From the NCBI GenBank assembly GCA_038317055.1, contig JBBQBA010000001.1, positions 344,153 through 408,152 of the forward strand: a DNA stretch of 64,000 bases, in the 5' to 3' direction. Positions 682-56,057 of this stretch are shown here, one piece after another. A program made the translations under genes and the position numbers. Position 1 is the first letter of the stretch. The number at the start of each line of letters is the position of its first letter. The DNA comes from Candidatus Saccharimonadales bacterium. Lineage in GTDB: Bacteria; Patescibacteriota; Saccharimonadia; Saccharimonadales; DATKHC01. The notes below the pieces were generated by a model. That model was not told the origin of the DNA and made no database searches. It saw only the letters and a program-made list of their open reading frames with translations.

Positions 682-3513
682 TTATGCATCTATGTCTGCT
701 CGGCCACCACCACCAGTAGTATCATACGGATCATTTGATCTTTGTGGCGGAGCTTCAGCACGTCGTAGCATTCTACCTAAGCCTTCAGGATCTTGTTCTG
801 CAATATCTCTAATGATCTTCGAATTCGATGCAGAGCCATTAATCATATTATTAACATGTTGTTGATTTAATGGTGAGGCATAGCCCTTCTGGGTATCATA
901 TTGAGACATTTGCCCAACTGTTCTAATTGCATCATGTAATGCAGCTTCTCGATCTGCCTGTGGCTTTGAGGTGTCTTGCCAAGTAGAGATGCTTTTACCG
1001 AGGTGTTTACTTAAGGTCTCAGTGATGTTCTTAACTTGTTTTGGTTTGCCTCTAAGTGCGGTGACTGGATCAGCGGCTTGAGCAGCATCTAAGTTTGCCT
1101 GATCATAATCTCGTTCACCGGCATCCGCTGTTACTAATTTATTTAGAGACCCAAAACCAGGAGCTAAATCGTATCTACCAACTTCTTTAGCTCTTGAGTT
1201 GGCAAATCCAGCCAAACTTGTTTTGGTTGACATATTGCCTTTGGCAGATCGGTCTAGGGTTTCAGTCATATCCTTCATATCTTCATATCCAGTGCCGGTG
1301 GTAACCAGTTGTTGTGCGGCAGCATAGGACGCACCCTTTTCACCAGCTCCCCATCCAAATCCAGCTGCTTGCCATGATCTAATTGCATCATTAACCCGAC
1401 CAGGAACTTTATCGGGATCAGTACCATCAGCATTATATCTTGAAGTTAAGGCTGCTCTAGCTTCAGCTGCTGAACCATATGTTCCAGCCCTTAGTGCCTC
1501 TTCATGGTTAGCTATAGCCTGGAAGTTTTCACTCTTCATTATTTCCGCACCACGCTTTATGGTGGTTTGGTTATCTGCTGAATTACCTCGAACACCTAAG
1601 CCGAAACTTCCACCAAATCCCTGTCCAACTCCTCTAGATACTGTGTTTAGTCGGTTAGACAGTCTATTTGAACCTGGTATGTAATCTCTTCCGTGAAACC
1701 TTTCACCTTGCTTGAGGGCCGCTGCATTCTGACTAAGTTTGTTTCTTCTAAATTGGCCAAGAGGTTTGTTGATACTTCTTTGAAGTCCGCCCACCATACC
1801 GCCAACATTTGATAGTATGCCACCGGCCATCCTAAATGTCAGAGGTATAAGAAAATATGGTCCAAAGTAGGCAACCATAGCAGTAACTTGTTGTACTGCT
1901 CCAGCTCCTTGTACGTTAGGGCCGGTTGCGGAAAGCGCAAACACACGTCCAATTGCAATAAAACCAGCAATTATTGGGAACATTATTAGTGCTTTACTAA
2001 AATTCTCCCACCAGAACTTCCATACTTTCTGTGTTCCGGGTAGGATAAAACAAGCAATCGCAATAGGTGCAAAAATGGCCATGAAAACGATGAATATCTG
2101 TCTGAATGTTAGTAGAGCAAAACCAATAATTACTGCTAGGGCTGCCGTTAACGCAAAGCTAAGTAGTCCAATTAATCCCAGTCCAAGTAAACTAACGCCA
2201 CTAATGATTGCAAGAGCCGAAGAACCTGTCTGATTAATTGTAATACCACCATTTTTAGCTAAACCTACAAATGGCGCATAAATTAGATATCTTATCCCAA
2301 CGCCCAGATCATTTGAAATCTGAACCATTAACTGAACAAGCTCCCAAGACAATGCAATTCCTATAACAGCAATTATCATTCTTGGGAGTACTTTTTTAAT
2401 CGTATATGCATCAAAGACTTCGAAACCAAGAGCTTGAGAAATGACCATAATTAAAGCAGCTATTACAACAATACCAATAGCTATAGTTCTTAAGTTCTGC
2501 CAAGCCAGGTAATAGCCTTCTGATTCGGGGTTACCGTTACCGCTACAAGACTGGCCGTTGGCTGGAATAGTATTTATGTTATTTGGTGAGCTTGTTGGAT
2601 TAAAATACTGACAACCATTTATATCTAAAAGCGACGTAATTTGAGTATCCAAATAACCAACCATTGCGTTTGCCGCATCTACTATCGGACAAATTAACCA
2701 TGTAAGTGGATTCAGATCGACATTACATGTTAGGCCAATTGTTGCTGTTTGTTGGGCTGTAGATGTTGAAGTAGGGCCAGATGAAGACGTAACTGCCGTA
2801 GCTGTACCAGCACCAGCGCCACTTCCTGCAGTACATGCGGCTTTATCTGCACCAGTATAGTTGTTACATGCTGTGGTTGCGGCACCATCTCTTGACGCGC
2901 CATTCCAACCATTTACACAAGCTTTAAATTGCGAGTTAGTTGTGAACTTAAGATTTGTACAGGCCACGCCAGCGGTTGATGCGGCCGCTGAAGCGTTATA
3001 ACCTGTTTTACAAGCTTCAACTATCACTGCTCCGTTATTTACGTTCGCAGCCTGAATATTTTTACAATAATCGCTTCCTTGGCCTTGTTCACCAAGCGTA
3101 AAAGCATAGTTACATGCTATAAATGAACCATTCTGGTTGTTGCCGATAAAAGATGCATTATACGGGTTGTTGCTGTATTTAGCACATGCAGAATTTCCTG
3201 CATTATTTGTGTTCAGACCAGCAGCGGCTCCGGCTTTAACACCAGCTAAACATGAGTCATAGTTTGGGCCAGCCTGACCCAGGCCACCACAATTACCAAG
3301 TCCACCACCATTTGGCCTTGCTAAACCTTCAGCGTAACCGGTTTCACAAGGTGTAAGTAGGGCACCAGTTTTGCCTAGGTTTATGCAAGTTATACTCGCT
3401 GCGTCGTTTGCAGCTGCTGAAGCATTCCCCTGAACAACACCGGACAAAACAATAGTTACTAAAACAACAAGAGATATACCCGCAAAAACTGACTTTAGTT
3501 TTGATAAATGCAT
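682..3513 (-). CDS. VirB6/TrbL-like polytopic type IV secretion membrane protein with a Cys-rich ectodomain and a long C-terminal tail
   Basis: 943-aa ORF with a signal-like N-terminus, a ~200-aa Cys/Ala/Gly-rich region and an S/T linker. A block of hydrophobic helices (about aa 340-600) is followed by a ~370-aa polar tail. It lies directly upstream of the PrgI-like gene on the same strand. Confidence 0.5.
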   Translation of the reverse strand: MHLSKLKSVFAGISLVVLVTIVLSGVVQGNASAAANDAASITCINLGKTGALLTPCETGYAEGLARPNGGGLGNCGGLGQAGPNYDSCLAGVKAGAAAGLNTNNAGNSACAKYSNNPYNASFIGNNQNGSFIACNYAFTLGEQGQGSDYCKNIQAANVNNGAVIVEACKTGYNASAAASTAGVACTNLKFTTNSQFKACVNGWNGASRDGAATTACNNYTGADKAACTAGSGAGAGTATAVTSSSGPTSTSTAQQTATIGLTCNVDLNPLTWLICPIVDAANAMVGYLDTQITSLLDINGCQYFNPTSSPNNINTIPANGQSCSGNGNPESEGYYLAWQNLRTIAIGIVVIAALIMVISQALGFEVFDAYTIKKVLPRMIIAVIGIALSWELVQLMVQISNDLGVGIRYLIYAPFVGLAKNGGITINQTGSSALAIISGVSLLGLGLIGLLSFALTAALAVIIGFALLTFRQIFIVFMAIFAPIAIACFILPGTQKVWKFWWENFSKALIMFPIIAGFIAIGRVFALSATGPNVQGAGAVQQVTAMVAYFGPYFLIPLTFRMAGGILSNVGGMVGGLQRSINKPLGQFRRNKLSQNAAALKQGERFHGRDYIPGSNRLSNRLNTVSRGVGQGFGGSFGLGVRGNSADNQTTIKRGAEIMKSENFQAIANHEEALRAGTYGSAAEARAALTSRYNADGTDPDKVPGRVNDAIRSWQAAGFGWGAGEKGASYAAAQQLVTTGTGYEDMKDMTETLDRSAKGNMSTKTSLAGFANSRAKEVGRYDLAPGFGSLNKLVTADAGERDYDQANLDAAQAADPVTALRGKPKQVKNITETLSKHLGKSISTWQDTSKPQADREAALHDAIRTVGQMSQYDTQKGYASPLNQQHVNNMINGSASNSKIIRDIAEQDPEGLGRMLRRAEAPPQRSNDPYDTTGGGGRADIDA

Positions 3514-3765: not shown

Positions 3766-4554
3766 ATGCACATCTTAAAAATCGCTAAAACCAATCAAAT
3801 CTTAAATAAAAAAACTTTTAAATATTTTTTCATATTTCTTTTTCTTACAGTCTTAATTACTTCAGGTATTAAAAGTGCAAGTTATGCCGATACCCCCGTG
3901 GGTCAAGCTTATTGCTATCTTTCCCAGACTGGCATAACCTACGTTTGCGGACCTGGACCTCAAAAAGCACTTATAGGTGGTTATAGTGGAACTATTACAT
4001 CAGATCAACAATGGGGAAATGTATGTACGACACTGCCGATACAAGGTACTGACGGCAAAATAATTCCAGCCGGAGGATGTAACAGCAGTGGTGATAGTCC
4101 TCTTTCTCAATTCTCAAATGGAACTTGTTATATAGAAGGTGTAAATTCAAGCGGTAATGACGTTTGGATTGCCCAAAAAGACTGTACTTCCGCAAATTTT
4201 TCAAATATTGCTCCAGCCACAACCAATATGCCGACGGATATTACAAACTGGACCCAGGACACGGCAGTCGGAAGCTGTGGACTAAACACTAACTCAGGAA
4301 GTGGTTCGGGCACATGTGACCTGGTTCAAAAATATATAAACCCTACTATTGATTTTCTAGCAGCGGCAGTCGGAATTATTTGTGTAATATCAGTTGTACT
4401 TGGAGGTATCCAATATTCTGCATCAGCCGACAATCCGCAAGCATCCGCAGCAGCTAAGAAACGAATTGCTAATGCAGTACTAGCCGCAGTTGTTTTCCTT
4501 TTTCTTTGGGGCTTCCTTCAATTTATCGTACCAGGAGGGTTACTGAATGGTTAG
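3766..4554 (+). CDS. pilin-like T4SS/conjugal-transfer protein (VirB2/TrbC-like), paralog 1 of 6, with a large Cys-rich ectodomain
   Basis: 262 aa with an N-terminal signal/TM and 8 Cys in the ectodomain. The C-terminal two-helix hairpin AAAVGIICVISVVLGGIQYSASADNPQASAAAKKRIANAVLAAVVFLFLWGFLQFI is shared with the five following genes. Confidence 0.55.
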   Translation: MHILKIAKTNQILNKKTFKYFFIFLFLTVLITSGIKSASYADTPVGQAYCYLSQTGITYVCGPGPQKALIGGYSGTITSDQQWGNVCTTLPIQGTDGKIIPAGGCNSSGDSPLSQFSNGTCYIEGVNSSGNDVWIAQKDCTSANFSNIAPATTNMPTDITNWTQDTAVGSCGLNTNSGSGSGTCDLVQKYINPTIDFLAAAVGIICVISVVLGGIQYSASADNPQASAAAKKRIANAVLAAVVFLFLWGFLQFIVPGGLLNG

Positions 4555-4584
4555 GATTATACGAACTAAATATAAAGGAATGAA

Positions 4585-5004
4585 ATGTTACCGATAATAT
4601 CAAGTCATATATTTAATATATTTAGTGCTACAGTTGATACTTCGTGTAACCCTGACAAAACTTTTTTTGGACTTCCCACATGGTATAAGTACATAAACGT
4701 TAGTACCAATACAGACAAAACATGCAATTTTTCAAAATTTACTTTTTTTACACCACAGCACGTTTTTGCTCCGGGTAATATTTTTCTAATTCTACTTGCA
4801 ATATTAGACGACTTATTAATTATTGCTGGTGTTGTTGCAGTAGTTTTTGTAATCTACGGAGCAGTACAATTTATTATTGGTCAAGGAGAACCCGAGAGAA
4901 TAAAACACGCTCAAGGAACTATTCTAAATGCAGTAATTGGGCTAGTAATAGCAATTATTGCCGCCGCACTTGTAAACTTCCTTGGTAACTCACTAGCAGG
5001 TTAA
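4585..5004 (+). CDS. pilin-like T4SS protein (VirB2/TrbC-like), paralog 2
   Basis: 139 aa. Contains FFGLPTWYKYI and the C-terminal hairpin AGVVAVVFVIYGAVQFIIGQGEPERIKHAQGTILNAVIGLVIAIIAAALVNFL. An AAAGGAA RBS lies upstream. Confidence 0.6.
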   Translation: MLPIISSHIFNIFSATVDTSCNPDKTFFGLPTWYKYINVSTNTDKTCNFSKFTFFTPQHVFAPGNIFLILLAILDDLLIIAGVVAVVFVIYGAVQFIIGQGEPERIKHAQGTILNAVIGLVIAIIAAALVNFLGNSLAG

Positions 5005-5013
5005 AATAGATAT

Positions 5014-5361
5014 ATGAAAATATTGACACTTTCAACTAAATTTAAAATAGTAATTATTCCAATGGCCTTTGTATTAATTGCCAAAAGTTATGTAAGTGCT
5101 CAGACTCCAATATCGGTTCAAACTTTGCCTCAAGTTAATACTGATAATTCTGAGTTTAAAATAATATTAAATATATTTTTCGGATTAATTGGTTCGATTG
5201 CTTTACTCGTTATTGTAATAGCGGGTTTTAGATATATTGTTTCAAGGGGCGAACCCCAGGAAATCGCGCGGGCTAAAAATACAATTATTTATGCGATCGT
5301 TGGATTAGTAATTGCAATATTGGCGTTTTCAATTGTTAATTTTGTTGTAGGAAACCTATGA
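5014..5361 (+). CDS. pilin-like T4SS protein, paralog 3
   Basis: 115 aa with a signal peptide. C-terminal hairpin: IALLVIVIAGFRYIVSRGEPQEIARAKNTIIYAIVGLVIAILAFSIVNFV. Confidence 0.6.
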   Translation: MKILTLSTKFKIVIIPMAFVLIAKSYVSAQTPISVQTLPQVNTDNSEFKIILNIFFGLIGSIALLVIVIAGFRYIVSRGEPQEIARAKNTIIYAIVGLVIAILAFSIVNFVVGNL

Positions 5362-5786
5362 CCATATTCAATTCACTTACTAAAAAAATTATTGTAAGCC
5401 TGGGTTTTTTGCTGAGTTTTTCATTTTTAATACCTATTACAGTTCATGCATCCCCCTATAATGCTTTTTGTTCAAACGGACAAATATCTCCAAACTCTGG
5501 CAGGGGTCTAGCCGGTGCTAACGCACTTTGTAAAGACAATCCTAGCTCCAATCCTCTTTATGGCCCAAGTGGAATAATAGACAAGGTGATAAACATAGTG
5601 ACTATTGTCGCTGGAGTAGCTGCAATAATTATGATCATAATAGCTGGACTTCAATTTGTACTGGCTAACGGGGATTCCAAAAGGGTAGAATCTGCTAGAA
5701 ACACAATTATATTTACCGTAGTTGGCTTAGTGGTTATCGTTTTAGCAAGATTTATTATAGAATTTGTAGTGAGTAAGATCGGTTAG
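5358..5786 (+). CDS. pilin-like T4SS protein, paralog 4
   Basis: 142 aa; ATGA overlap with paralog 3. Has a signal peptide and a Cys pair (CSNGQ...LC). Hairpin: VAGVAAIIMIIIAGLQFVLANGDSKRVESARNTIIFTVVGLVVIVLARFIIEFV. Confidence 0.6.
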   Translation: MTIFNSLTKKIIVSLGFLLSFSFLIPITVHASPYNAFCSNGQISPNSGRGLAGANALCKDNPSSNPLYGPSGIIDKVINIVTIVAGVAAIIMIIIAGLQFVLANGDSKRVESARNTIIFTVVGLVVIVLARFIIEFVVSKIG

Positions 5787-5789
5787 ATT

Positions 5790-6200
5790 ATGATTAAACA
5801 AATTACCCAAATACTACTAATTATTGCAGCACCCCTACTTATTGGGCTCTCGAGCAGTCCTAGTGCGGTTTTCGCTGACAGTGCAACAACTGGAGCATCT
5901 AACCTAGTATGTCAAGGCATAGGTACTGCAAGTGGTACGGGCGGCTGTTCGGCTGATCACGGTGCAACTAGTATTAACAGCGTTATCGCTGAAGTCGTAA
6001 ATATCCTTACTATTATTGTCGGAATTGCAGCGGTAATAATGATCGTAGTGGCTGGTTTTAGATTTGTGGTCTCTGGTGGAGACTCAGCAAATGTCGCGTC
6101 TGCTAAAAACAGCATTATTTATGTAGTAGTAGGATTAGTAGTGGTAGCACTTGCCCAAATAATAGTTCATTTTGTATTATTTAACGTCTCTAAAACATAA
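5790..6200 (+). CDS. pilin-like T4SS protein, paralog 5
   Basis: 136 aa with a signal peptide and a Cys pair (CQGIGTASGTGGC). Hairpin: IVGIAAVIMIVVAGFRFVVSGGDSANVASAKNSIIYVVVGLVVVALAQIIVHFVL. Confidence 0.6.
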   Translation: MIKQITQILLIIAAPLLIGLSSSPSAVFADSATTGASNLVCQGIGTASGTGGCSADHGATSINSVIAEVVNILTIIVGIAAVIMIVVAGFRFVVSGGDSANVASAKNSIIYVVVGLVVVALAQIIVHFVLFNVSKT

Positions 6201-6279
6201 ATACATAAGAGGTTTACTTGATGCAAATAACTCGCTATGATATAAGTAAATACAATTTCCTAAGAAAGGTAATAAATAA

Positions 6280-6693
6280 ATGATAAAAAGATTAAAAACT
6301 TTACTAATGACGCTTACTATGTCCGGTCTTATATTTCTGCCTGCCATAATTCCAGCCGGTGTTCATGCAGCTTCAAATAGTACTGGTCAATTATGTACTG
6401 GAGCAGGTCTAAAAGTTCAAGGCAGTACAACTTGTTCTAATACAAGCAATGCTATAAATGGCATTATCAAGTGGGTTCTAGACATTTTCTCAGTGATTGT
6501 TGGTATCGCAGCGGTAATTATGATCGTAGTTGGTGGTCTTAAATACACTATCTCTGGTGGAGATTCGGCTAGAGTAACAGGGGCAAAGGACACAATTCTA
6601 TTCGCAATTGTTGGTCTGGTAGTCGTTGCACTGGCGCAGATTATAGTCCACTTTGTATTATCCAACGTGCAAACAGTTGCCAACGGCAGTTAA
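6280..6693 (+). CDS. pilin-like T4SS protein, paralog 6
   Basis: 137 aa with a signal peptide and a Cys pair (CTGAGLKVQGSTTC). The hairpin is nearly identical to paralog 5: IVGIAAVIMIVVGGLKYTISGGDSARVTGAKDTILFAIVGLVVVALAQIIVHFVL. Confidence 0.6.
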   Translation: MIKRLKTLLMTLTMSGLIFLPAIIPAGVHAASNSTGQLCTGAGLKVQGSTTCSNTSNAINGIIKWVLDIFSVIVGIAAVIMIVVGGLKYTISGGDSARVTGAKDTILFAIVGLVVVALAQIIVHFVLSNVQTVANGS

Positions 6694-43571: not shown

Positions 43572-44369
43572 TTAATCTCTAAGTTCAAGCGTTAAGCATT
43601 TTACGCCACCACCGGATTTTTGGTATTCACCGATAGGAGTTCCAATTACTTCTAGACCCATTTCTTGATATTTGTTGATTAGGCCAGTTGCTTTGTCGGA
43701 CAATACTATCTTCTTACCGTCACTCATTGCATTGAGTCCGTAGGCTTTGGCATCGTCTTCGGTCGCTTCAATCACATTTGGAACTATTTCATGAAGTTTC
43801 TTAACAGAATCTTCGGTAAAAGCAGGTGGCCAGATAGAAACTGTGTCGTTGCTTACTATCGTAAGACATGTATCAAGATGATAAAATCTTGCATCTGTGG
43901 TTTGTAGGCTTATTACTTTTTTCCCAAAGAAATCAGCTATTTCTTTATGGGATGGTAGGTCACTTCGCCAGGGATAACCCGCAAATATAATGTCATTCCA
44001 AACCAGAGCATCACCTTCACCTTCAAAGTCATATTTAGGCTCTAAAAACTCAGTATATCCTTGAGATTCAAACCATTTCTTAAAATAAGCGGTTTCACCT
44101 TGTCGATCTGGTGCACGAAAAGTAGGCAACGCCACCTTTTTATCTATAACTAAAGCACCATTTGCCGTGAAAACCATATCCGGTAGACCTTGGATTGGTT
44201 CGATTAGCTGGACGTCCCATTCAAAGTTATCTTGATAAATAGTATGAAGACTTTCCCATTGTGACTGCGCGAGAGTGGTTTCTACCTGATTGTCCTTATG
44301 CATCCAGGGGTTAATTTCATATTCGATATCAAAATATGTTGGAGCACACATGAGTATTTTTTTTGGCAT
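43572..44369 (-). CDS. amidinotransferase/DDAH-type guanidino-group-modifying enzyme family protein
   Basis: The track ORF extends to a TTG at 44438; the ATG at 44369 gives MPKKILMCAPTYFDIEYEINPWM..., the typical family N-terminus. The C-terminal GGGVKCLTLEL carries the catalytic Cys motif. Confidence 0.65.
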   Translation of the reverse strand: MPKKILMCAPTYFDIEYEINPWMHKDNQVETTLAQSQWESLHTIYQDNFEWDVQLIEPIQGLPDMVFTANGALVIDKKVALPTFRAPDRQGETAYFKKWFESQGYTEFLEPKYDFEGEGDALVWNDIIFAGYPWRSDLPSHKEIADFFGKKVISLQTTDARFYHLDTCLTIVSNDTVSIWPPAFTEDSVKKLHEIVPNVIEATEDDAKAYGLNAMSDGKKIVLSDKATGLINKYQEMGLEVIGTPIGEYQKSGGGVKCLTLELRD

Positions 44370-44458
44370 ATCTTTGTTTATATTAAAGTTGTTTGAGTAG
44401 AAGTCAAACTTATTTTTTGAACTCGTGAAAACTGTCAATTTAACTCTAGTTGTAGTGC

Positions 44459-50513: not shown

Positions 50514-52868
50514 CTATAATACTGGTGGTAGAAAACTAATGCCAGCATAAGTTGGATTTGAACTAGTAGTCGAACCTGCAGTAAAAGGATTAACTATCCA
50601 AGTATTTGGATTATATTTAAAAATTTCAGCAGCACTATTAGCAGTCTGAATATCACCAAATGTTCGATTTAGCTTAATTTGTCTTGCAATAACAGCACCA
50701 TCAATAGTTAATTGTTCACTAGCACCACTACAGCTGTCGTATAAGTTAGAAAAGTCATATTTAGTATATCCATTTGAACAAGTTGTAATAACCCCCGCAT
50801 TTGCGTTCGCATTTGGTTGTGCAATATATACTCCATCCATAGTTGAAACCCCGTCATCGACAAATATATTTCCGGATACTACTAAGTAAAAATTAGGTAT
50901 GCTGGCAACTCCTCCAGCGTAGTTTTGGTCTAAAATTATGTTGTTTTTTATAACAGCATCACCTTCGACATAAAGAACCACATGGCCATTGAAATTTCCT
51001 CCAGATTTAGTGATGTTTACAAAACTATTACCAAATAACGGTTTAACCCAACAATAATTTATCCCGTCAGTTAACTTACAAGCAGGTAAGCTATTTAGAT
51101 CAAATGTATCGGATCCTAATGTTATCGCTGGACTATTTGCTTCCGCACCTGCACTGCCATAATAATCTGACGAACAATCTGTTTTACCCTGAGAACCAAG
51201 ATTGCCTCCAAACGGCGGTGAATTATTAGCAAATGTTAATCCTGTCGGGGTACTCAGACTATAACTATTATCACCGTTACTAGTTACGAATCCATTAATT
51301 ACATTAGGCGCAAAAGCCGCAAGATTTGAGCTTGCTCCTCGGTAAGTTGCTGCACCAAGATTAAAGGCTAGTATTCCAGATTTATTACTTGGATTACAGT
51401 TATTACTAAAACCTCCGCTTCCAGTAGAAACGTCACCACCCTGAACAACAAAATAAGGATTGTAGCCGATAGTAACAGTACTATTAGGGCATGCAGGGGG
51501 GGCAATTGTTACTGCACCATCTTTATATGTATAGCTATATGTATATACTCCCGGAGTTGATTCGGTAAATTGAGCTTGATACGGGGGTGAGCTAACAGAC
51601 TTAGGTGCTTGACCGTCAAAAGTTATTATTGCTGATCCACCAACTACTGGATTACCAGGAGAACCTGAAGTTTTATTAATAAACTTAGGTGATGCAACTA
51701 CAAAGAACGGTTGATTAAGTATCGGACCACCTAGATTGCCGGGTGCGTTTATTGACGGAGGGCCGTTACATGCTGGAGCATAACAAGGCTTTGGTGAACC
51801 ATAAGCAATGCTTGAGGTTAGGCCACTGGCTGGAGTTAAGTCCACATTATGTGAGCGTAGTTGATCAAAACTACTCATATCTACTGAGAAATTACCTAAT
51901 CCGTCGGAAGTTACCGGACTACCAGGTGGTGTTGAACCATCTACCTTATAATCAATTACAGCACCAGGATCAGGATTGCTACCAAACTCAACCTGTCCAT
52001 TGACAGTTTCCCCGTTTACCGGTTCACCGTTCGCCGTAGTTGGAACACATGTATAAGATAAATTTATAATTTTTATTGGTTGCAATACTTTTAAGATAAA
52101 ATTTGGTGCAGGGAAAAACGGCTTACAATTACCTGCTACATCAGACACTTTTGCTGACGAGTAACCACCATTAACCACACATTGATAAAGTAAAGTTTTT
52201 GGCTTACCTTTTCCGTTATTCTTCTGAAATATATTTGCAGAAATAACATTTGCGTTCAGGGTTATGTTAGTTGGTTGAGAAACATTAGGTGCAGTGTAGG
52301 TAAATGTAACTGGCTGTCCAAACCAATAACGAGACCCATTATCTGTATATTGTATGGTAGTTGGGGAAAAGTTAGATATAGTTCCTGGACTTGTTGGGTC
52401 AACATTATTTACCGGGTTAATTCCTCCAAAAATATCGATATTACCAAAAAGATTACCGTTTACATTTGAAGTGTCCCTTGTCCCATCAAGTGGAAGAATG
52501 GCGTTATACAAAGGACCAGTAACAATTGAGACTCGATAGCAAAGAAATATAACAGTGTTGATCTGTAGGTTAATCGTCTGGCCGGGGAACAGAGTAAGTG
52601 TAGTGGCGTCTACGTTAGGATTATTAACCGGTGAAATCCAACTATTTACGAACTCTTCTTGATTACCAGGAGGTTGACACGTACTTCCTAGATTAGCAGG
52701 ATTATCATATGACTGTAATTTGAACTGAAAGTCTGAAGGCAACTCAAGGTCTGGTCTCATATAATAAGCATGTGCTTCATGTTTTGTGATTGTCGTGATA
52801 GCCAAAACAAGAAATAGACTAAGAAGTAAAAACTTAGAAATATTAAACAATGTCTTATTAGATATCAT
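50514..52868 (-). CDS. large secreted/surface protein of unknown function
   Basis: 784 aa with an N-terminal signal/anchor (...TKHEAHA). It is N/G/S/T/P-rich and predicted beta-rich. The C-terminal third has repetitive hydrophobic-G-D/N turns (HVVLYVEGDAVIKNNII, FYLVVSGNIFVDDGV, LTIDGAVIARQIKL). Its ATG overlaps the upstream stop (TAATG). Confidence 0.6.
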   Translation of the reverse strand: MISNKTLFNISKFLLLSLFLVLAITTITKHEAHAYYMRPDLELPSDFQFKLQSYDNPANLGSTCQPPGNQEEFVNSWISPVNNPNVDATTLTLFPGQTINLQINTVIFLCYRVSIVTGPLYNAILPLDGTRDTSNVNGNLFGNIDIFGGINPVNNVDPTSPGTISNFSPTTIQYTDNGSRYWFGQPVTFTYTAPNVSQPTNITLNANVISANIFQKNNGKGKPKTLLYQCVVNGGYSSAKVSDVAGNCKPFFPAPNFILKVLQPIKIINLSYTCVPTTANGEPVNGETVNGQVEFGSNPDPGAVIDYKVDGSTPPGSPVTSDGLGNFSVDMSSFDQLRSHNVDLTPASGLTSSIAYGSPKPCYAPACNGPPSINAPGNLGGPILNQPFFVVASPKFINKTSGSPGNPVVGGSAIITFDGQAPKSVSSPPYQAQFTESTPGVYTYSYTYKDGAVTIAPPACPNSTVTIGYNPYFVVQGGDVSTGSGGFSNNCNPSNKSGILAFNLGAATYRGASSNLAAFAPNVINGFVTSNGDNSYSLSTPTGLTFANNSPPFGGNLGSQGKTDCSSDYYGSAGAEANSPAITLGSDTFDLNSLPACKLTDGINYCWVKPLFGNSFVNITKSGGNFNGHVVLYVEGDAVIKNNIILDQNYAGGVASIPNFYLVVSGNIFVDDGVSTMDGVYIAQPNANANAGVITTCSNGYTKYDFSNLYDSCSGASEQLTIDGAVIARQIKLNRTFGDIQTANSAAEIFKYNPNTWIVNPFTAGSTTSSNPTYAGISFLPPVL

Positions 52869-53416
52869 TATTTTTTACCCGCAAATATTTGTGCATTTTT
52901 ATCTATCTGATTATTCAAAACCGACATATTTGATACTTTTATTATAAGCGGTTTCAGGCTATTGTAATGTCCATCAATTTCACTGCTTAACACAAAGCTA
53001 GTTGTATACCTTGCTTCAAGTAATTTTAAGTATTTAGATGCGTTAGAATAATCTCCTATATTAATATAGTAGGAATCAACAATATATAAACAATTAGAAT
53101 CTTGCTCATAATCTGAAAATGACATAATTTGTTTTACGGTTTTTTTTAGTTGTTCAGTGTTAGCTGGAGCTAACTCTTCTCCGGCTGTTTTCAAGATAAC
53201 CCCTGAACAAACTTTCCCATTATCATCATCATATACAACTGCTTTTTTTTGACTACTGTAGTGATAAATTATTATCCCAAGCACTATTAATTCTATGAAT
53301 ATAACAACCATCACCACATGCCAGACGGTACCAAGTTTTTCTTCTTTGGAAAAATGACGCATTAAGAGAGTTGGCTTTTTTTGTCCAATACCTGAACTAT
53401 CATTCTTCTCGCTCAT
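52868..53416 (-). CDS. hypothetical single-pass membrane protein, translationally coupled to the 784-aa gene
   Basis: 182 aa with one TM helix (VWHVVMVVIFIELIVLGIIIY). Confidence 0.55.
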   Translation of the reverse strand: MSEKNDSSGIGQKKPTLLMRHFSKEEKLGTVWHVVMVVIFIELIVLGIIIYHYSSQKKAVVYDDDNGKVCSGVILKTAGEELAPANTEQLKKTVKQIMSFSDYEQDSNCLYIVDSYYINIGDYSNASKYLKLLEARYTTSFVLSSEIDGHYNSLKPLIIKVSNMSVLNNQIDKNAQIFAGKK

Positions 53417-53487: not shown

Positions 53488-54042
53488 CTAAATTGGCCTA
53501 GCTTTTAAACCAATCAAATAGCCAAAATAACTTGAAAGAAGATGTATTAGAACCCAAACAATTAATATTGAGAGATAGTTAGTCCAACTAAGTATAACTA
53601 TCGGTAAACTTAATAACAAACCACCAACTATGTAATCAATTTGATCAAATGGTACCCAGGAATGACCGGGTTTGACTCCGGCTTGTCTTTTAAAAAAGCT
53701 TTCAGTAGCATCTCCAGCTAAAGCACCGAAGCCTAGTAAGGGCCCCAATAATAAAATTTTTGGATCATTGTAATTAATTTTTCCAGAAATAGTGTTTATC
53801 CAATCAGAATGGTTATAACCATACTTTTGTAGCCGTATAACTATTAATCCAAATATAACTCCACCAATTAATCCAAGCCAAGTTTTATTATCACCAAAAA
53901 TTCTCTTACCCCTGTATTTCATGCCAAAATCTAGTGGTTTTAATAACGAACTCAAAAACTTTATTTTAGTTGTAAAAATTGGACTAACATTAGCAATTCC
54001 TGCTGGTAGAAAAAACCATAAGGCAAACCAGATTTCATTCAT
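53488..54042 (-). CDS. carS: CDP-archaeol synthase (CarS, former DUF46) family cytidylyltransferase homolog
   Basis: 184 aa. PLDFGMKYRGKRIFGDNKTWLGLIGGVIFG, FGALAGDATESFFKRQAGV and PFDQIDYIVGG align block-for-block with archaeal CarS as I recall it (PIDFGK..DGKRILGDGKTWRG; GD...SFIKRR; VDQL.F). Confidence 0.75.
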   Translation of the reverse strand: MNEIWFALWFFLPAGIANVSPIFTTKIKFLSSLLKPLDFGMKYRGKRIFGDNKTWLGLIGGVIFGLIVIRLQKYGYNHSDWINTISGKINYNDPKILLLGPLLGFGALAGDATESFFKRQAGVKPGHSWVPFDQIDYIVGGLLLSLPIVILSWTNYLSILIVWVLIHLLSSYFGYLIGLKARPI

Positions 54043-54045
54043 ATA

Positions 54046-54690
54046 CTAACTGAATCTCTTCATGACTCTGTTATATTTTGGATACAATATTGCCCTGAGT
54101 GTAGGTTTTTGTAAATACGGTGTTCCTTTGGCTAATAAATCTTTGATGTTATGTCTGGTGGGAAGTTCAGCAATCTTGGTATAAGTTTGTCCAAATCCAA
54201 AACTGCCATGTGCATCACTACTGGCAACGCCTATGAGTTTATTAAGATTAGCCCAAACAAGAATTTGACTATACTTACTTTGAAATAATGCTCTTCCATT
54301 ACCTATTTCGACGATATCTATAGTATCAATAACTTCTTCTAGTACATTAATTTGAAGACCATGCCGGTATGTCTCAAGTGGGTGGGGAATATAAACTAGA
54401 CCTCCTTGATCTTTAATTTTCCGGATGGTATCAACTGTAGTTAGATTTGCTGGTATTTTTTCCTTTAGATAAAGTCCAATTATCTCACCACTCGATGTCA
54501 TTATCTCTTCACCAACAATAATTCGGTCACCAAGTTTATCAGCCATTTTTTTAGCAAAGTCTATTCGATTATGATCAGTAATTGCTATGCAATCTAATTT
54601 ACCGGTTGATAGAGCTTTTTCATATTCATCACCAGTAATACCTCCATCAGGAGATGCAGTTGAGTGAGTATGTAAATCAATCTTGAACAT
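54046..54690 (-). CDS. PHP-domain metal-dependent phosphoesterase
   Basis: 214 aa. N-terminal IDLHTHSTASPDG, plus ITDHN and SSDAHG (the PHP His/Asp motifs). Confidence 0.75.
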   Translation of the reverse strand: MFKIDLHTHSTASPDGGITGDEYEKALSTGKLDCIAITDHNRIDFAKKMADKLGDRIIVGEEIMTSSGEIIGLYLKEKIPANLTTVDTIRKIKDQGGLVYIPHPLETYRHGLQINVLEEVIDTIDIVEIGNGRALFQSKYSQILVWANLNKLIGVASSDAHGSFGFGQTYTKIAELPTRHNIKDLLAKGTPYLQKPTLRAILYPKYNRVMKRFS

Positions 54691-55318
54691 TTAGCTTTTT
54701 ACTTACTCGGATTAGCCGATTAATTGCCTCAAAACTAGCAAGTATACCTATTAATACCACTGCAGTTCCAAGATAGTTAGTAAGTAGTCCTAAGATTAGG
54801 ATTACCATTCTAATTTCGAATGGAACTATACCATTTTTAAATACACTATTGGGCTTAATGTCTTTATTAGAAGCTAAAAGGGCAGCCTCGCCCCGAGCTC
54901 TAACATAACTTACTGATATGCTTGCTCCACATGCTAGAATTGCCCAAACCGCTAAATATGGCTGTCCGGAAGCAATTAGGTTATATCCAATTGCCGTGTA
55001 TAGCATCACTTCTTTAAAACGATCAGTAACTGAATCTAGTACCATACCAGTGCTGCTCACTCTGCCCTGTAGTCTTGCTAATTCTCCATCAAGTGTGTCA
55101 AATAGACCAAATACAATAAGCAGAATTGCCGCTAATTTATTGTGTCTAGTGGCAATAAGTATTGCAATCGGAATATGAGCCAATACCCCAGTAATTGTTA
55201 CCATATTAGGGGTCAGCTTGCCGCCTGTTATTTTGTTGAGTAATTTAGCAACTTGCCGAAGCATTTTACGAATTAAATTCCTCGTAGGATCTAAAACTGA
55301 AGTTTCCGCATTAGCCAT
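54677..55318 (-). CDS. CDP-alcohol phosphatidyltransferase family protein
   Basis: 213 aa. FDTLDGELARLQGRVSSTGMVLDSVTDR matches D-G-x2-A-R-x8-G-x3-D-x3-D. It overlaps the PHP gene by 14 nt. Confidence 0.85.
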   Translation of the reverse strand: MANAETSVLDPTRNLIRKMLRQVAKLLNKITGGKLTPNMVTITGVLAHIPIAILIATRHNKLAAILLIVFGLFDTLDGELARLQGRVSSTGMVLDSVTDRFKEVMLYTAIGYNLIASGQPYLAVWAILACGASISVSYVRARGEAALLASNKDIKPNSVFKNGIVPFEIRMVILILGLLTNYLGTAVVLIGILASFEAINRLIRVSKKLNVQD

Positions 55319-55367
55319 TTAATCTACATTATAGCTTGATAGGTGTTAATTGCTATAATAAGACTTT

Positions 55368-56057
55368 ATGATTACAGACATTATTAAAAGACACACCGAT
55401 TTTTTTAGAATTGCTGGTGCTTTAGCAGTGTCAACGATTGCGGCAATAGTCCTTATTCTAGTAGGTGCAGAGAAAGCTAAATCTAGTTTTTATATATTTT
55501 TAATCATAAATATGGGCTTAGCTTATATACCAGTAATCTTAGCCTGGTGGCTAGTAGAGCGACTCAAACGAACTGCCTGGCTTAGTCTTGGTAATATACT
55601 AATAACTTTGTTCTGGCTTGGATTCCTTCCAAATAGTTTCTATATAATTACAGATCTTATTCATACTCAAGCATCAGTTGGAATTGACCTACTTTATAAC
55701 GTCGTAATTATAATGTTTTGTATTTTTAATGGTCTAGTAGCGGGATATATTAGCCTATACTTAGTCCACCAAGCATTAGTAAAACGATTTTATTACCGAA
55801 ATGTACATTTTGTAATTGGTTTTATTCTTTTGCTATGTAGTTTTGCGATCTATTTGGGTAGATATCTTCGATGGAACAGCTGGGATGTAATCGTTAATCC
55901 GGCTGGTTTATTGTTTGATGTTAGTGATTCAATTGCCAGTCCATCGACTCATCCTGATGTACTAGTAACTACCGTTACTTTTTTCTTATTGCTAGGATTC
56001 ATGTACGTAATAATCTGGCAAATCGCACATGCACTTAGGAATGCTAAAAAAGTTTAA
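55368..56057 (+). CDS. DUF1361-like polytopic membrane protein
   Basis: 229 aa. NMGLAYIPVILAWWL and LPNSFYIITDLIH resemble the DUF1361 pattern. Confidence 0.5.
   Translation: MITDIIKRHTDFFRIAGALAVSTIAAIVLILVGAEKAKSSFYIFLIINMGLAYIPVILAWWLVERLKRTAWLSLGNILITLFWLGFLPNSFYIITDLIHTQASVGIDLLYNVVIIMFCIFNGLVAGYISLYLVHQALVKRFYYRNVHFVIGFILLLCSFAIYLGRYLRWNSWDVIVNPAGLLFDVSDSIASPSTHPDVLVTTVTFFLLLGFMYVIIWQIAHALRNAKKV

What the first reader, a model, noticed from the sequence alone, without database searches (positions are those of the whole stretch)
53488..55318. Compact operon pairing an archaeal-type CarS cytidylyltransferase with a CDP-alcohol phosphatidyltransferase and a PHP phosphatase
Three overlapping or abutting minus-strand genes are involved. 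The first encodes a CDP-alcohol phosphatidyltransferase with the full D-G-x2-A-R...G-x3-D-x3-D motif. The second encodes a PHP phosphoesterase. The third encodes a 184-aa protein that aligns block-for-block with archaeal CDP-archaeol synthase (CarS) rather than bacterial CdsA. Together they form a self-contained activation, head-group transfer and dephosphorylation module. It is analogous to the CDP-archaeol to archaetidyl-inositol-phosphate or -glycerol-phosphate route followed by a phosphatase step. CarS homologs in bacteria, including candidate phyla, have been reported, so the gene itself is not new. The tight three-gene arrangement does suggest how a lipid-scavenging organism could re-head-group acquired lipids.
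Basis: partly seen in the sequence, partly recalled or inferred. Interest (0 to 1): 0.55.

Follow-up and report, generated by a model that had tools for sequence, protein, structure and literature searches.

The report
Saccharibacterial phosphatidylinositol head-group operon
Three tightly packed genes in a lipid-scavenging Saccharibacteria (TM7) genome most likely turn borrowed membrane lipid into phosphatidylinositol, using an archaeal-type activating enzyme and a phosphatase type not previously proposed for the last step of this pathway.

Summary
Three minus-strand genes sit at 54677-55318 (CDP-alcohol phosphatidyltransferase), 54046-54690 (PHP phosphoesterase) and 53488-54042 (CarS-family cytidylyltransferase). 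They overlap by 14 nt or are 3 nt apart. The same order occurs in 55 of 80 Saccharibacteria species genomes.

The head group can now be named. In relatives, myo-inositol-1-phosphate synthase (MIPS) abuts the cluster. The transferase scores best against archaetidylinositol-phosphate and phosphatidylinositol-phosphate (PIP) synthases and keeps their phosphate-binding residues. The module therefore most likely makes phosphatidylinositol (PI): CDP-lipid synthesis, transfer to inositol phosphate, then dephosphorylation.

The lipid is probably diacylglycerol-based, not archaeol. In related clusters a canonical CdsA occupies the CarS slot. In others a YegS/DgkB-type lipid kinase lies between PHP and CarS. 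Other candidate-phyla bacteria encode fused transferase-CarS proteins.

This PHP subfamily sits next to a cytidylyltransferase in 41 of 42 loci searched from PHP. It is a concrete candidate for the PIP phosphatase, which published work calls unidentified outside Bacteroides.

No MIPS lies in this window, and no activity has been tested. I rate it a new variant of a known pathway, of moderate to good interest.

The parts
54677..55318 (-). CDP-alcohol phosphatidyltransferase of the inositol-phosphate clade (predicted phosphatidylinositol-phosphate synthase), 213 aa, first gene of the operon
   Evidence: Pfam PF01066 scores 62.3 bits. The best NCBIfam matches are archaetidylinositol-phosphate synthase (100.8 bits, cut-off 180) and PIP synthase (83.3 bits, cut-off 170), against 24 bits for PgsA. 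PDB matches are AF2299 and the PIP synthases 6WM5, 6H53 and 5D91. The full D74xxD77G78xxA81R82x8G91xxxD95xxxD99 motif is present. S137, R170 and R201 are invariant in 61 orthologs. S137 aligns with MtPgsA1 S132. R170 and R201 were matched to R155 and R195 by reading the AF2299 and RsPIPS alignments.
54046..54690 (-). PHP-family metal-dependent phosphoesterase, 214 aa; predicted phosphatidylinositol-phosphate phosphatase (inferred)
   Evidence: Pfam PHP scores 28.4 bits; PHP_C scores 19.9 bits, below its 21.3 cut-off. The AlphaFold model has pLDDT 95. Foldseek finds PHP phosphoesterases (3E38, RNase AM 7UG9, TM0559 2ANU, pAp phosphatase 2YB1). H7, H9, D15, H40, E62, H103, D159 and H161 are invariant in the family. 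The C-terminal tail is conserved and polybasic, net +4 to +7. The gene overlaps the transferase stop by 14 nt. In PHP-anchored loci it is followed by CarS in 39 of 42 and by CdsA in 2 more, and preceded by the transferase in 40 of 49.
53488..54042 (-). CarS-family CTP:lipid-phosphate cytidylyltransferase, 184 aa; predicted CDP-diacylglycerol synthase standing in for CdsA
   Evidence: PF01864 scores 95.8 bits. The NF003114 CarS equivalog scores 127.3 bits, below its 148 cut-off. The only PDB hit is 5GUF (E 1.7e-14). The fold matches 5GUF at TM 0.66/0.75. The CarS-type motif S115-F-F-K118-R119...D133-Q-I-D136 is invariant in the family. CdsA occupies the same slot in L124, L138 and L139. A lipid kinase lies between PHP and CarS in L121, L136, L140 and L143. 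Fusion to the transferase is seen in P0426, P0442 and P0487.
55321..55349 (-). Promoter-like site in the 49-bp divergent intergenic region, directly upstream of the first gene
   Evidence: TTAACA-17-TAGATT, 9 of 12 matches, ends 3 nt before the ATG at 55318. This is a consensus match only. The number of such sites in the region is not above the shuffled expectation.
55368..56057 (+). DUF1361 membrane protein, a divergent neighbour conserved in part of the family; whether it belongs to the module is uncertain
   Evidence: PF07099 scores 122.7 bits. It sits at the same divergent position in 17 of 80 species loci and in L090.

Best explanation
This is a three-gene operon of a Saccharibacteria (TM7, candidate phyla radiation) bacterium. 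It most likely builds phosphatidylinositol (PI) from pre-formed lipid in three steps.

Step 1: the CarS-family membrane enzyme uses CTP to convert a lipid phosphate, most likely host-derived diacyl-phosphatidate, into the CDP-activated lipid.

Step 2: the CDP-alcohol phosphatidyltransferase transfers the phosphatidyl group to 1L-myo-inositol-1-phosphate. This gives phosphatidylinositol phosphate (PIP), as in the actinobacterial, Bacteroides and archaeal route.

Step 3: the soluble PHP metallo-phosphoesterase removes the remaining phosphate to give PI.

What is shown: gene identities at family level, operon structure, co-conservation, linkage to MIPS, CdsA, a lipid kinase and fusions in relatives, and intact catalytic motifs.

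What is inferred: the lipid substrate (diacyl rather than ether), the acceptor in this particular genome, and the PHP substrate.
For: 1. Family assignments and intact motifs are given.

2. Operon structure: a 14-nt overlap and a 3-nt gap. A separate, stronger promoter-like site precedes the next gene downstream.

3. Co-conservation: transferase-PHP-CarS is kept in 55 of 80 species genomes, all labelled Saccharibacteria or close to them.

4. Inositol as the head group. MIPS (PF01658, annotated inositol-3-phosphate synthase) abuts the cluster in two arrangements. It lies upstream and co-directional in L004, L008 and L078, and convergent 4-1100 bp downstream in L022, L025, L053, L064 and L066. 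Adjacency in 7 of 72 loci has a chance probability of about 5e-7. MIPS also lies next to the divergent-transferase variant in L106, L121 and L127, and overlaps PHP in L164. All transferase variants score best against AIP/PIP synthases. The sulfate/phosphate-pocket residues described for M. tuberculosis PgsA1 (PMC6506517) are invariant here.

5. CarS-like as a functional CDP-diacylglycerol synthase. A full-length CdsA (PF01148, 189.5 bits) sits in the same slot after PHP in L124, L138 and L139, followed by a GT4 glycosyltransferase. A DAGK_cat/YegS_C lipid kinase is inserted between PHP and CarS in L121, L136, L140 and L143, which implies DAG to PA to CDP-DAG. Single polypeptides fuse the transferase to CarS, including one in a complete Ca. 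Nomurabacteria genome.

6. Saccharimonadia are reported to lack de novo phospholipid synthesis and to live on Actinobacteria, which make PI (PMC12592800, PMC8406219, PMC6031116).

7. A phosphatase is required after a PIP synthase. It is described as unidentified in mycobacteria and archaea (PMC6506517, PMC9385802). PHP is the only hydrolase in the cluster.
Against: No MIPS gene lies in the 64-kb window, and I could not determine whether the rest of this genome has one (one search was inconclusive).

The MIPS-linked loci carry CarS proteins only 47-51% identical to the window's, so the head group is carried over by orthology.

All NCBIfam equivalog scores are below their curated cut-offs.

Published work indicates that archaeal CarS and bacterial CdsA discriminate their substrates, and that A. 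fulgidus CarS does not complement an E. coli cdsA mutant (PMC9385802). Use of diacyl-PA by a CarS-family enzyme therefore goes against the only experimental precedent.

PHP is linked somewhat more tightly to the cytidylyltransferase (41 of 42) than to the transferase (40 of 49). PHP-CarS pairs occur without a nearby transferase, so PHP may serve another step.

No solved PHP relative is a lipid phosphatase.
Confidence: 0.62

Rival explanations
1. The pathway is right, but PHP has a different job. It is not the PIP phosphatase. It may work with or before the cytidylyltransferase. It could be a pyrophosphatase that pulls the CTP + PA reaction. It could be a phospholipase-C-like phosphodiesterase that releases diacylglycerol from host lipids for the kinase and CarS. 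It could also be an inositol-monophosphatase feeding a eukaryote-type PI synthase.
For: The tightest linkage of this PHP subfamily is to CarS or CdsA (41 of 42) rather than to the transferase (40 of 49). PHP-CarS pairs with overlapping stop and start persist where no transferase lies within 8 kb (L037, L038, L047, L059, L081). The order PHP, lipid kinase, CarS in L121, L136, L140 and L143 would fit a DAG-producing step. The nearest solved PHP proteins include phosphodiesterases such as RNase AM as well as monoesterases.
Against: A PIP synthase pathway needs a phosphatase, and no other hydrolase is conserved in the cluster. In L164, PHP genes overlap MIPS and the PIP-synthase-like gene with no cytidylyltransferase adjacent. 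The transferase keeps the phosphate-pocket residues of PIP synthases, which argues against free inositol as the acceptor. The PHP protein has no signal peptide or transmembrane segment, as an enzyme attacking host lipids outside the cell would probably need (sequence, model).
Confidence: 0.25
2. A genuinely archaeal-type route. The CarS homolog makes CDP-archaeol from isoprenoid ether lipid (made or acquired), and the transferase makes archaetidylinositol phosphate. These bacteria would then carry archaeal-type lipids.
For: The protein is a CarS-family member by every comparison. The transferase and its relatives score highest against the archaeal AIP synthase model. Experimental work indicates that CarS prefers archaeal substrates (PMC9385802).
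Against: No GGGP/DGGGP synthase, G1P dehydrogenase or isoprenoid gene was found among the 55 window ORFs of at least 120 aa scanned with Pfam. CdsA, the bacterial enzyme, replaces CarS in the same operon slot. A YegS/DgkB-type diacylglycerol-kinase-family gene sits next to CarS in other variants. Known hosts of Saccharibacteria are Actinobacteria with ester lipids (PMC12592800). The CarS equivalog score is below its cut-off.
Confidence: 0.05
3. The product is not a membrane glycerophospholipid. It could be a soluble inositol phosphodiester (a di-myo-inositol-phosphate-like solute) or an inositol-phosphate decoration on a polyprenyl-phosphate or cell-envelope acceptor.
For: The transferase also matches the DIPP synthase domain (58 bits). 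DIP synthesis likewise ends with a phosphatase step. The CTP-transferase superfamily also includes polyprenol kinases (own knowledge).
Against: The DIPP synthase score is well below the AIP/PIP synthase scores. DIP synthesis uses a soluble nucleotidyltransferase to make CDP-inositol, not a five-helix membrane CarS/CdsA enzyme. CdsA, a lipid kinase, a PatA-like acyltransferase and a GT4 glycosyltransferase in variant clusters all point to glycerolipid and PIM-type chemistry.
Confidence: 0.05

Closest known systems
Bacterial PIP-synthase route to phosphatidylinositol (Mycobacterium PgsA1 with Ino1; Bacteroides thetaiotaomicron BT_1526 MIPS, BT_1523 PIP synthase, BT_1525 PIP phosphatase)
   Same: The chemical logic is the same: CDP-lipid plus inositol-1-phosphate gives PIP, then PI. 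The transferase family and phosphate-pocket residues are shared. MIPS is clustered in relatives. Some variant clusters carry PatA-like acyltransferase or GT4 genes, as at the mycobacterial pgsA1-patA-pimA locus (own knowledge for the locus).
   Different: The CDP-lipid synthase is CarS-type rather than CdsA-type. The candidate phosphatase is a PHP-family protein, not the PgpA-family BT_1525 (PMC9246714). The organism cannot make the lipid backbone itself.
Archaeal CDP-archaeol synthase (CarS; Aeropyrum pernix structure 5GUF) followed by archaetidylinositol-phosphate synthase
   Same: It shares the protein family and five-helix fold (TM 0.66/0.75) and the CarS-type K-R...D-Q-x-D motif. The order of reactions is the same. 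The downstream phosphatase is also unidentified in archaea (PMC9385802).
   Different: It occurs in a bacterium. The equivalog score is below its cut-off. The protein carries an extra segment of about 30 residues (roughly 66-97) that is not aligned to ApCarS. Context (CdsA swap, lipid kinase) points to diacyl lipids.
Bacterial CdsA (phosphatidate cytidylyltransferase, PF01148; Thermotoga structure 4Q2E/4Q2G)
   Same: The predicted reaction and the position in the pathway are the same. CdsA occupies the identical operon slot in L124, L138 and L139.
   Different: CdsA shows only a local 33.9-bit match to the catalytic core. The fold match is weak (TM 0.46/0.34). The window protein is about 100 residues shorter.
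PHP-family phosphoesterases (COG0613/TrpH group: RNase AM, Cv1693 3',5'-bisphosphonucleotide phosphatase, TM0559, BVU_3505)
   Same: It shares the fold and the conserved His/Asp/Glu metal-ligand motifs.
   Different: The subfamily is distinct: 22-24% identity to the closest structural match of similar size, TM0559 (2ANU). It has a conserved polybasic C-terminal helix and a dedicated lipid-gene context. No characterised member acts on a phospholipid.

Membership tests
CDP-archaeol synthase (CarS, PF01864 / NCBIfam NF003114) | Profile match above the curated family threshold | tested here: inconclusive
   Pfam PF01864 scores 95.8 bits, above its cut-off of 22 (met). The NCBIfam equivalog NF003114 scores 127.3 bits, below its cut-off of 148 (not met). 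The protein is a family member but not a certified functional equivalent.
CDP-archaeol synthase (CarS, PF01864 / NCBIfam NF003114) | Five-transmembrane-helix CarS fold with a cytoplasmic CTP-binding cup | tested here: met
   The AlphaFold model has pLDDT 89.4. The best and only significant Foldseek hit is 5GUF, at TM 0.66/0.75 and probability 1.00.
CDP-archaeol synthase (CarS, PF01864 / NCBIfam NF003114) | Genome makes the substrate archaetidic acid (G1P dehydrogenase, GGGP and DGGGP synthases) | tested here: inconclusive
   None of these was found among the 55 window ORFs of at least 120 aa scanned with Pfam. The rest of the genome could not be read.
CDP-archaeol synthase (CarS, PF01864 / NCBIfam NF003114) | Catalytic activity on unsaturated archaetidic acid with CTP | not testable with these tools
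   This needs an enzyme assay. Context (CdsA swap, lipid kinase) argues for phosphatidate instead.
Phosphatidylinositol-phosphate / archaetidylinositol-phosphate synthase (CDP-alcohol phosphatidyltransferase, inositol-phosphate clade) | D-x2-D-G-x2-A-R-x8-G-x3-D-x3-D signature | tested here: met
   D74, D77, G78, A81, R82, G91, D95 and D99 are present. The Asp and Gly positions are invariant in 61 orthologs.
Phosphatidylinositol-phosphate / archaetidylinositol-phosphate synthase (CDP-alcohol phosphatidyltransferase, inositol-phosphate clade) | Conserved phosphate-binding pocket of the acceptor site (MtPgsA1 S132, R155, R195) | tested here: met
   S137, R170 and R201 are invariant. S137 is aligned directly to MtPgsA1. 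R170 and R201 were mapped through the AF2299 and RsPIPS alignments and by reading the sequence. The roles of these residues are taken from PMC6506517.
Phosphatidylinositol-phosphate / archaetidylinositol-phosphate synthase (CDP-alcohol phosphatidyltransferase, inositol-phosphate clade) | Score above the curated equivalog cut-off | tested here: not met
   NF040950 scores 100.8 bits against a cut-off of 180. NF045883 scores 83.3 bits against a cut-off of 170. These are still the top-ranked families, far above PgsA (24 bits) and PssA (29 bits).
Phosphatidylinositol-phosphate / archaetidylinositol-phosphate synthase (CDP-alcohol phosphatidyltransferase, inositol-phosphate clade) | Genomic association with myo-inositol-1-phosphate synthase | tested here: inconclusive
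   The feature is met in orthologous clusters of relatives: 7 species loci plus L004, L106, L121, L127 and L164. It is not met in this window, and the rest of this genome is unknown.
PHP phosphoesterase superfamily (PF02811) | PHP fold with the conserved His/Asp/Glu metal ligands | tested here: met
   PF02811 scores 28.4 bits, above its cut-off of 26.4. The model has pLDDT 95 and matches PHP structures at probability 1.00. H7, H9, D15, H40, E62, H103, D159 and H161 are invariant. Assigning them to the PHP motifs rests on my own knowledge of the family.
Phosphatidylinositol-phosphate phosphatase (functional class; known example BT_1525, PgpA family) | Homology to the known PIP phosphatase | tested here: not met
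   The protein has no PgpA-family match in Pfam or NCBIfam. If it does this job, it is a non-homologous replacement.
Phosphatidylinositol-phosphate phosphatase (functional class; known example BT_1525, PgpA family) | Hydrolysis of PIP to PI | not testable with these tools
   Only context evidence is available.

The most novel reading that the evidence does not exclude
Two linked claims. First, PHP-family enzymes of this subfamily are the long-sought PIP phosphatase of the PIP-synthase route, at least in candidate-phyla bacteria. Second, CarS-family cytidylyltransferases work naturally on bacterial diacyl-phosphatidate and are interchangeable with CdsA. The CarS/CdsA split would then not follow the archaeal/bacterial lipid divide. 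Together these would let Saccharibacteria rebuild scavenged host diacylglycerol or phosphatidate into phosphatidylinositol, the signature lipid of their actinobacterial hosts.
Probability: 0.42. Interest if true: 0.72.

Novelty: new variant of a known kind. Interest (0 to 1): 0.58.

Why it matters
Three points make this worth following up.

1. The enzyme that removes the phosphate from PIP is described as unidentified in mycobacteria and archaea (PMC6506517, PMC9385802). The only known example, in Bacteroides, belongs to the PgpA family (PMC9246714). A compact, well-conserved PHP subfamily wedged into inositol-lipid clusters is a concrete candidate that can be expressed and tested.

2. CarS and CdsA are usually treated as the archaeal and bacterial sides of the lipid divide. 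Here a CarS-family gene and a CdsA gene occupy the same operon slot in related bacteria. This is a natural experiment on their substrate specificity.

3. Saccharibacteria cannot make lipids and live on Actinobacteria, which are rich in PI and its mannosides. A dedicated re-head-grouping module shows what these epibionts do with acquired lipid. It may bear on how their envelope resembles or engages that of the host.

Tried and rejected
- I looked for MIPS in the window by tblastn and found none.
- I tried to learn whether the window's genome has MIPS elsewhere by searching MIPS homologs for one on a 491,555-bp contig. MIPS is so conserved that the 120 listed hits were all at least 79% identical to the query, and none was on that contig. 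The result is inconclusive.
- An exact-sequence look-up of the window's CarS protein found no record, so the assembly accession could not be recovered.
- The Pfam scan of 55 of the 63 window ORFs of at least 120 aa found no cdsA, lipid kinase, acyltransferase, GGGPS/DGGGPS or G1P dehydrogenase. This covers only 64 kb.
- I tested whether the PHP C-terminal helix is an amphipathic membrane anchor. The hydrophobic moment is modest (0.15-0.42), so I claim only a conserved polybasic tail.
- More distant PHP relatives (below about 44% identity) sit in unrelated contexts such as GNAT and UppP. The lipid role cannot be extended to the whole PHP/TrpH group.
- Literature searches for CDP-archaeol synthase together with Saccharibacteria, Patescibacteria or CPR found no paper describing this. 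Coleman et al. 2019 does not treat CarS. The ApCarS structure paper is not held.
- The terminator scan found no convincing terminator after the CarS gene.
- I considered and rejected a DIP-type solute pathway and a genuine archaeal ether-lipid pathway (see rival explanations).
Full report
**What is there**

The first pair overlaps by 14 nt and the second pair is separated by 3 nt.

A promoter-like site lies in the 49-bp divergent spacer upstream of the first gene. A stronger, separate promoter-like site (extended -10) precedes the next gene downstream, at 53416. The three genes therefore look like one transcription unit, and the two unknown proteins after them look like another.

The surrounding 64 kb is ordinary chromosome. 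It carries GroEL, ValRS, ArgRS, TsaD, Mur ligases, BacA, DnaG, RpoD, a two-component system and an array of T4SS-pilin paralogs. Homologs of all three proteins are labelled Candidatus Saccharimonadales in public records. The organism is therefore a Saccharibacterium (TM7, candidate phyla radiation).

**Family assignments**

*The 184-aa protein.* It matches Pfam CarS-like at 95.8 bits, against only a local 33.9-bit match to the CdsA family. Among all PDB sequences it hits only Aeropyrum CarS 5GUF (E 1.7e-14, collinear). Its AlphaFold model (pLDDT 89) superposes on 5GUF (TM 0.66/0.75) and only weakly on Thermotoga CdsA. It carries the CarS-type S-F-F-K-R...D-Q-I-D motif, which is invariant in the family. 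It scores below NCBI's equivalog cut-off for CarS (127 against 148). It is therefore a family member, but functional equivalence is not certified.

*The 213-aa protein.* It has the complete CDP-alcohol transferase signature. It ranks archaetidylinositol-phosphate synthase (100.8 bits), PIP synthase (83.3) and the Bacteroides PIP synthase (74.4) far above PgsA and PssA, though all are below cut-off. Its PDB matches are AF2299 and the PIP synthases. The residues that bind the conserved sulfate in M. tuberculosis PgsA1 are proposed there to hold the inositol-phosphate phosphate (S132, R155, R195; PMC6506517). They correspond to S137, R170 and R201, which are invariant in 61 orthologs.

*The 214-aa protein.* It is a PHP-fold phosphoesterase (model pLDDT 95). 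Its nearest structures are TM0559, BVU_3505, RNase AM and the pAp phosphatase Cv1693. Its His/Asp/Glu motifs are invariant, and it has a conserved polybasic C-terminal helix.

**Conservation of the arrangement**

A scan of one genome per species found 319 genomes with the CarS-like gene. The best 80 are almost all labelled Saccharibacteria. Calling ORFs in those loci and searching them with the window proteins gave these counts:

| Arrangement | Loci (of 80) |
|---|---|
| transferase-PHP-CarS, co-directional | 55 (53 of the 72 with enough upstream sequence) |
| transferase-CarS, no PHP | 6 |
| PHP-CarS, no transferase within 8 kb | 7 |
| CarS alone | 12 (4 on short contigs) |

A second survey anchored on PHP in metagenome contigs gave an independent view. 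For PHP proteins at least 44% identical to the window's:

- CarS follows PHP in 39 of 42 informative loci.
- The transferase precedes PHP in 40 of 49. In 12 of these it is in divergent orientation and belongs to a sister subfamily that scores 151-155 bits against the AIP synthase model.

PHP relatives below about 44% identity are in unrelated contexts, so the association is a property of this subfamily.

**Which head group**

In L004, L008 and L078 a myo-inositol-1-phosphate synthase gene abuts the transferase upstream, giving a four-gene run MIPS-transferase-PHP-CarS. In L022, L025, L053, L064 and L066, MIPS lies convergent 4-1100 bp downstream of CarS. In L106, L121 and L127 it sits beside the divergent transferase. 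In the more distant L164, PHP overlaps MIPS and is followed by a PatA-like acyltransferase, a second PHP and a transferase. That transferase scores 144-146 bits against the PIP/AIP synthase models.

MIPS adjacency in 7 of 72 species loci has a chance probability of about 5e-7 under a simple model, although those loci form one clade. Together with the family ranking and the phosphate pocket, this identifies the acceptor as inositol phosphate and the end product as an inositol phospholipid.

The window itself has no MIPS, and I could not establish whether its genome has one elsewhere.

**Which lipid**

Three observations argue that the CarS-like enzyme acts as a CDP-diacylglycerol synthase.

1. 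In L124, L138 and L139 a full-length canonical CdsA (PF01148, 189.5 bits) occupies the slot after PHP, followed by a GT4 glycosyltransferase. The PHP proteins of L124 and L139 are 53-56% identical to labelled Saccharibacteria PHPs. This is a non-orthologous swap within the same cluster.
2. In L121, L136, L140 and L143 a DAGK_cat/YegS_C lipid kinase of the YegS/Rv2252/BmrU family is inserted between PHP and CarS. This implies diacylglycerol to phosphatidate to CDP-diacylglycerol.
3. A profile search of 1.8 billion cluster representatives found 2642 relatives. They include 330-353-aa proteins that fuse an N-terminal CDP-alcohol transferase domain to a C-terminal CarS domain. One sits in a complete Ca. 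Nomurabacteria genome, between gyrB and secE-nusG.

No ether-lipid gene is present in the window. Saccharimonadia are reported to lack phospholipid synthesis and to depend on Actinobacteria.

Against this, the only experimental precedent says archaeal CarS does not replace E. coli CdsA (PMC9385802).

**What PHP does**

A PIP synthase pathway needs a phosphatase. The literature calls it unidentified in mycobacteria and archaea. In Bacteroides it is a PgpA-family protein. PHP is the only conserved hydrolase in these clusters. It is linked to MIPS and the transferase even where no cytidylyltransferase is adjacent (L164). PIP phosphatase is therefore the most economical assignment.

It remains an inference. 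PHP's tightest partner is the cytidylyltransferase, and PHP-CarS pairs exist without a nearby transferase. A role as a pyrophosphatase, a diacylglycerol-releasing phosphodiesterase or an inositol monophosphatase cannot be excluded.

**Comparison with what is known, and novelty**

The chemistry is the known prokaryotic PIP-synthase route. PI synthesis in a soil Saccharibacterium was already predicted from annotation (PMC6031116). The individual genes are annotated in public records as CDP-archaeol synthase and TrpH-like phosphoesterase.

I found three things undescribed in the searchable literature:

- the conserved operon itself;
- its use of a CarS-family enzyme, interchangeable with CdsA;
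- the dedicated PHP subfamily as a candidate PIP phosphatase.

I rate it a new variant of a known kind. Interest is about 0.58. Confidence in the overall mechanism is about 0.62: higher for an inositol phospholipid as the product, and lower for the specific PHP role.

Noticed in passing
L087:8001-8993 (CP060223.1, Ca. Nomurabacteria); proteins P0426, P0442, P0487: Single 330-353-aa proteins fuse an N-terminal CDP-alcohol phosphatidyltransferase domain to a C-terminal CarS-like domain. In the complete Nomurabacteria genome the gene sits between gyrB and secE-nusG-rplK, with no PHP nearby.
   Followed up: partly
L124:4660-5499, L139:2072-2917, L138:1956-2505: A canonical CdsA replaces the CarS-like gene directly after PHP. 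In L124 and L139 it is followed by a 403-aa GT4 glycosyltransferase whose best NCBIfam matches are a glycogen-synthase subfamily model and MshA (D-inositol-3-phosphate glycosyltransferase).
   Followed up: partly
L142:3790-4716 and L153:1124-1437: A 308-aa protein with no Pfam or NCBIfam match sits between PHP and CarS, in the slot that a YegS-type lipid kinase occupies in L121, L136, L140 and L143. It may be an unrecognised kinase.
   Followed up: no
L164:3995-7782: A GC-poor metagenome contig carries PHP, MIPS, a PatA-like acyltransferase, a second PHP and a PIP-synthase-like gene in one run. It has two PHP paralogs and no cytidylyltransferase adjacent. The organism is unknown.
   Followed up: partly
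window 3766-6693 (with 682-3513 on the minus strand): Five consecutive genes each end in a T4SS_pilin (PF18895) domain, forming a paralog array. They lie next to a 943-aa ORF with no family match.
   Followed up: no
window 50514-53416 (minus strand): Directly downstream of the operon lie a 182-aa single-pass membrane protein and a 784-aa protein with an N-terminal hydrophobic, signal-like segment. The two ORFs share one base (52868), and neither has a Pfam match. They have their own strong promoter-like site (TAGAAA-18-TGnTATAAT at 53457-53428).
   Followed up: partly
window 55318-55349: The best promoter-like -10 element ends only 3 nt before the ATG of the first operon gene. A TATAAT also lies about 10 nt upstream of the ATG. 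The transcript may be leaderless or nearly so.
   Followed up: no
window 55368-56057 and 17 of 80 species loci; L090:4016-4759: A DUF1361 membrane protein is conserved in divergent orientation next to the transferase gene, often with ArgRS beyond it. This could be functional linkage or plain synteny.
   Followed up: partly
L005:5978-8495 (OY969420.1, closest species genome, CarS 75% identical): The transferase, PHP and DUF1361 genes are each split or truncated into shorter ORFs. Because a neighbouring unrelated gene is also split, assembly indel errors look more likely than pseudogenisation.
   Followed up: partly
L004:3587-4738 and one search hit list: The Saccharibacteria MIPS is unusually conserved. 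The 120 best database hits are all 79-88% identical, and one is labelled as a Paenibacillaceae-type genus (Pristimantibacillus). This hints at recent horizontal spread or mislabelled bins.
   Followed up: no
window 43572-44438 (minus strand): This is a DDAH/arginine-deiminase-superfamily gene. Arginine deiminase systems have been discussed as an adaptive trait in host-associated Saccharibacteria (own knowledge).
   Followed up: no
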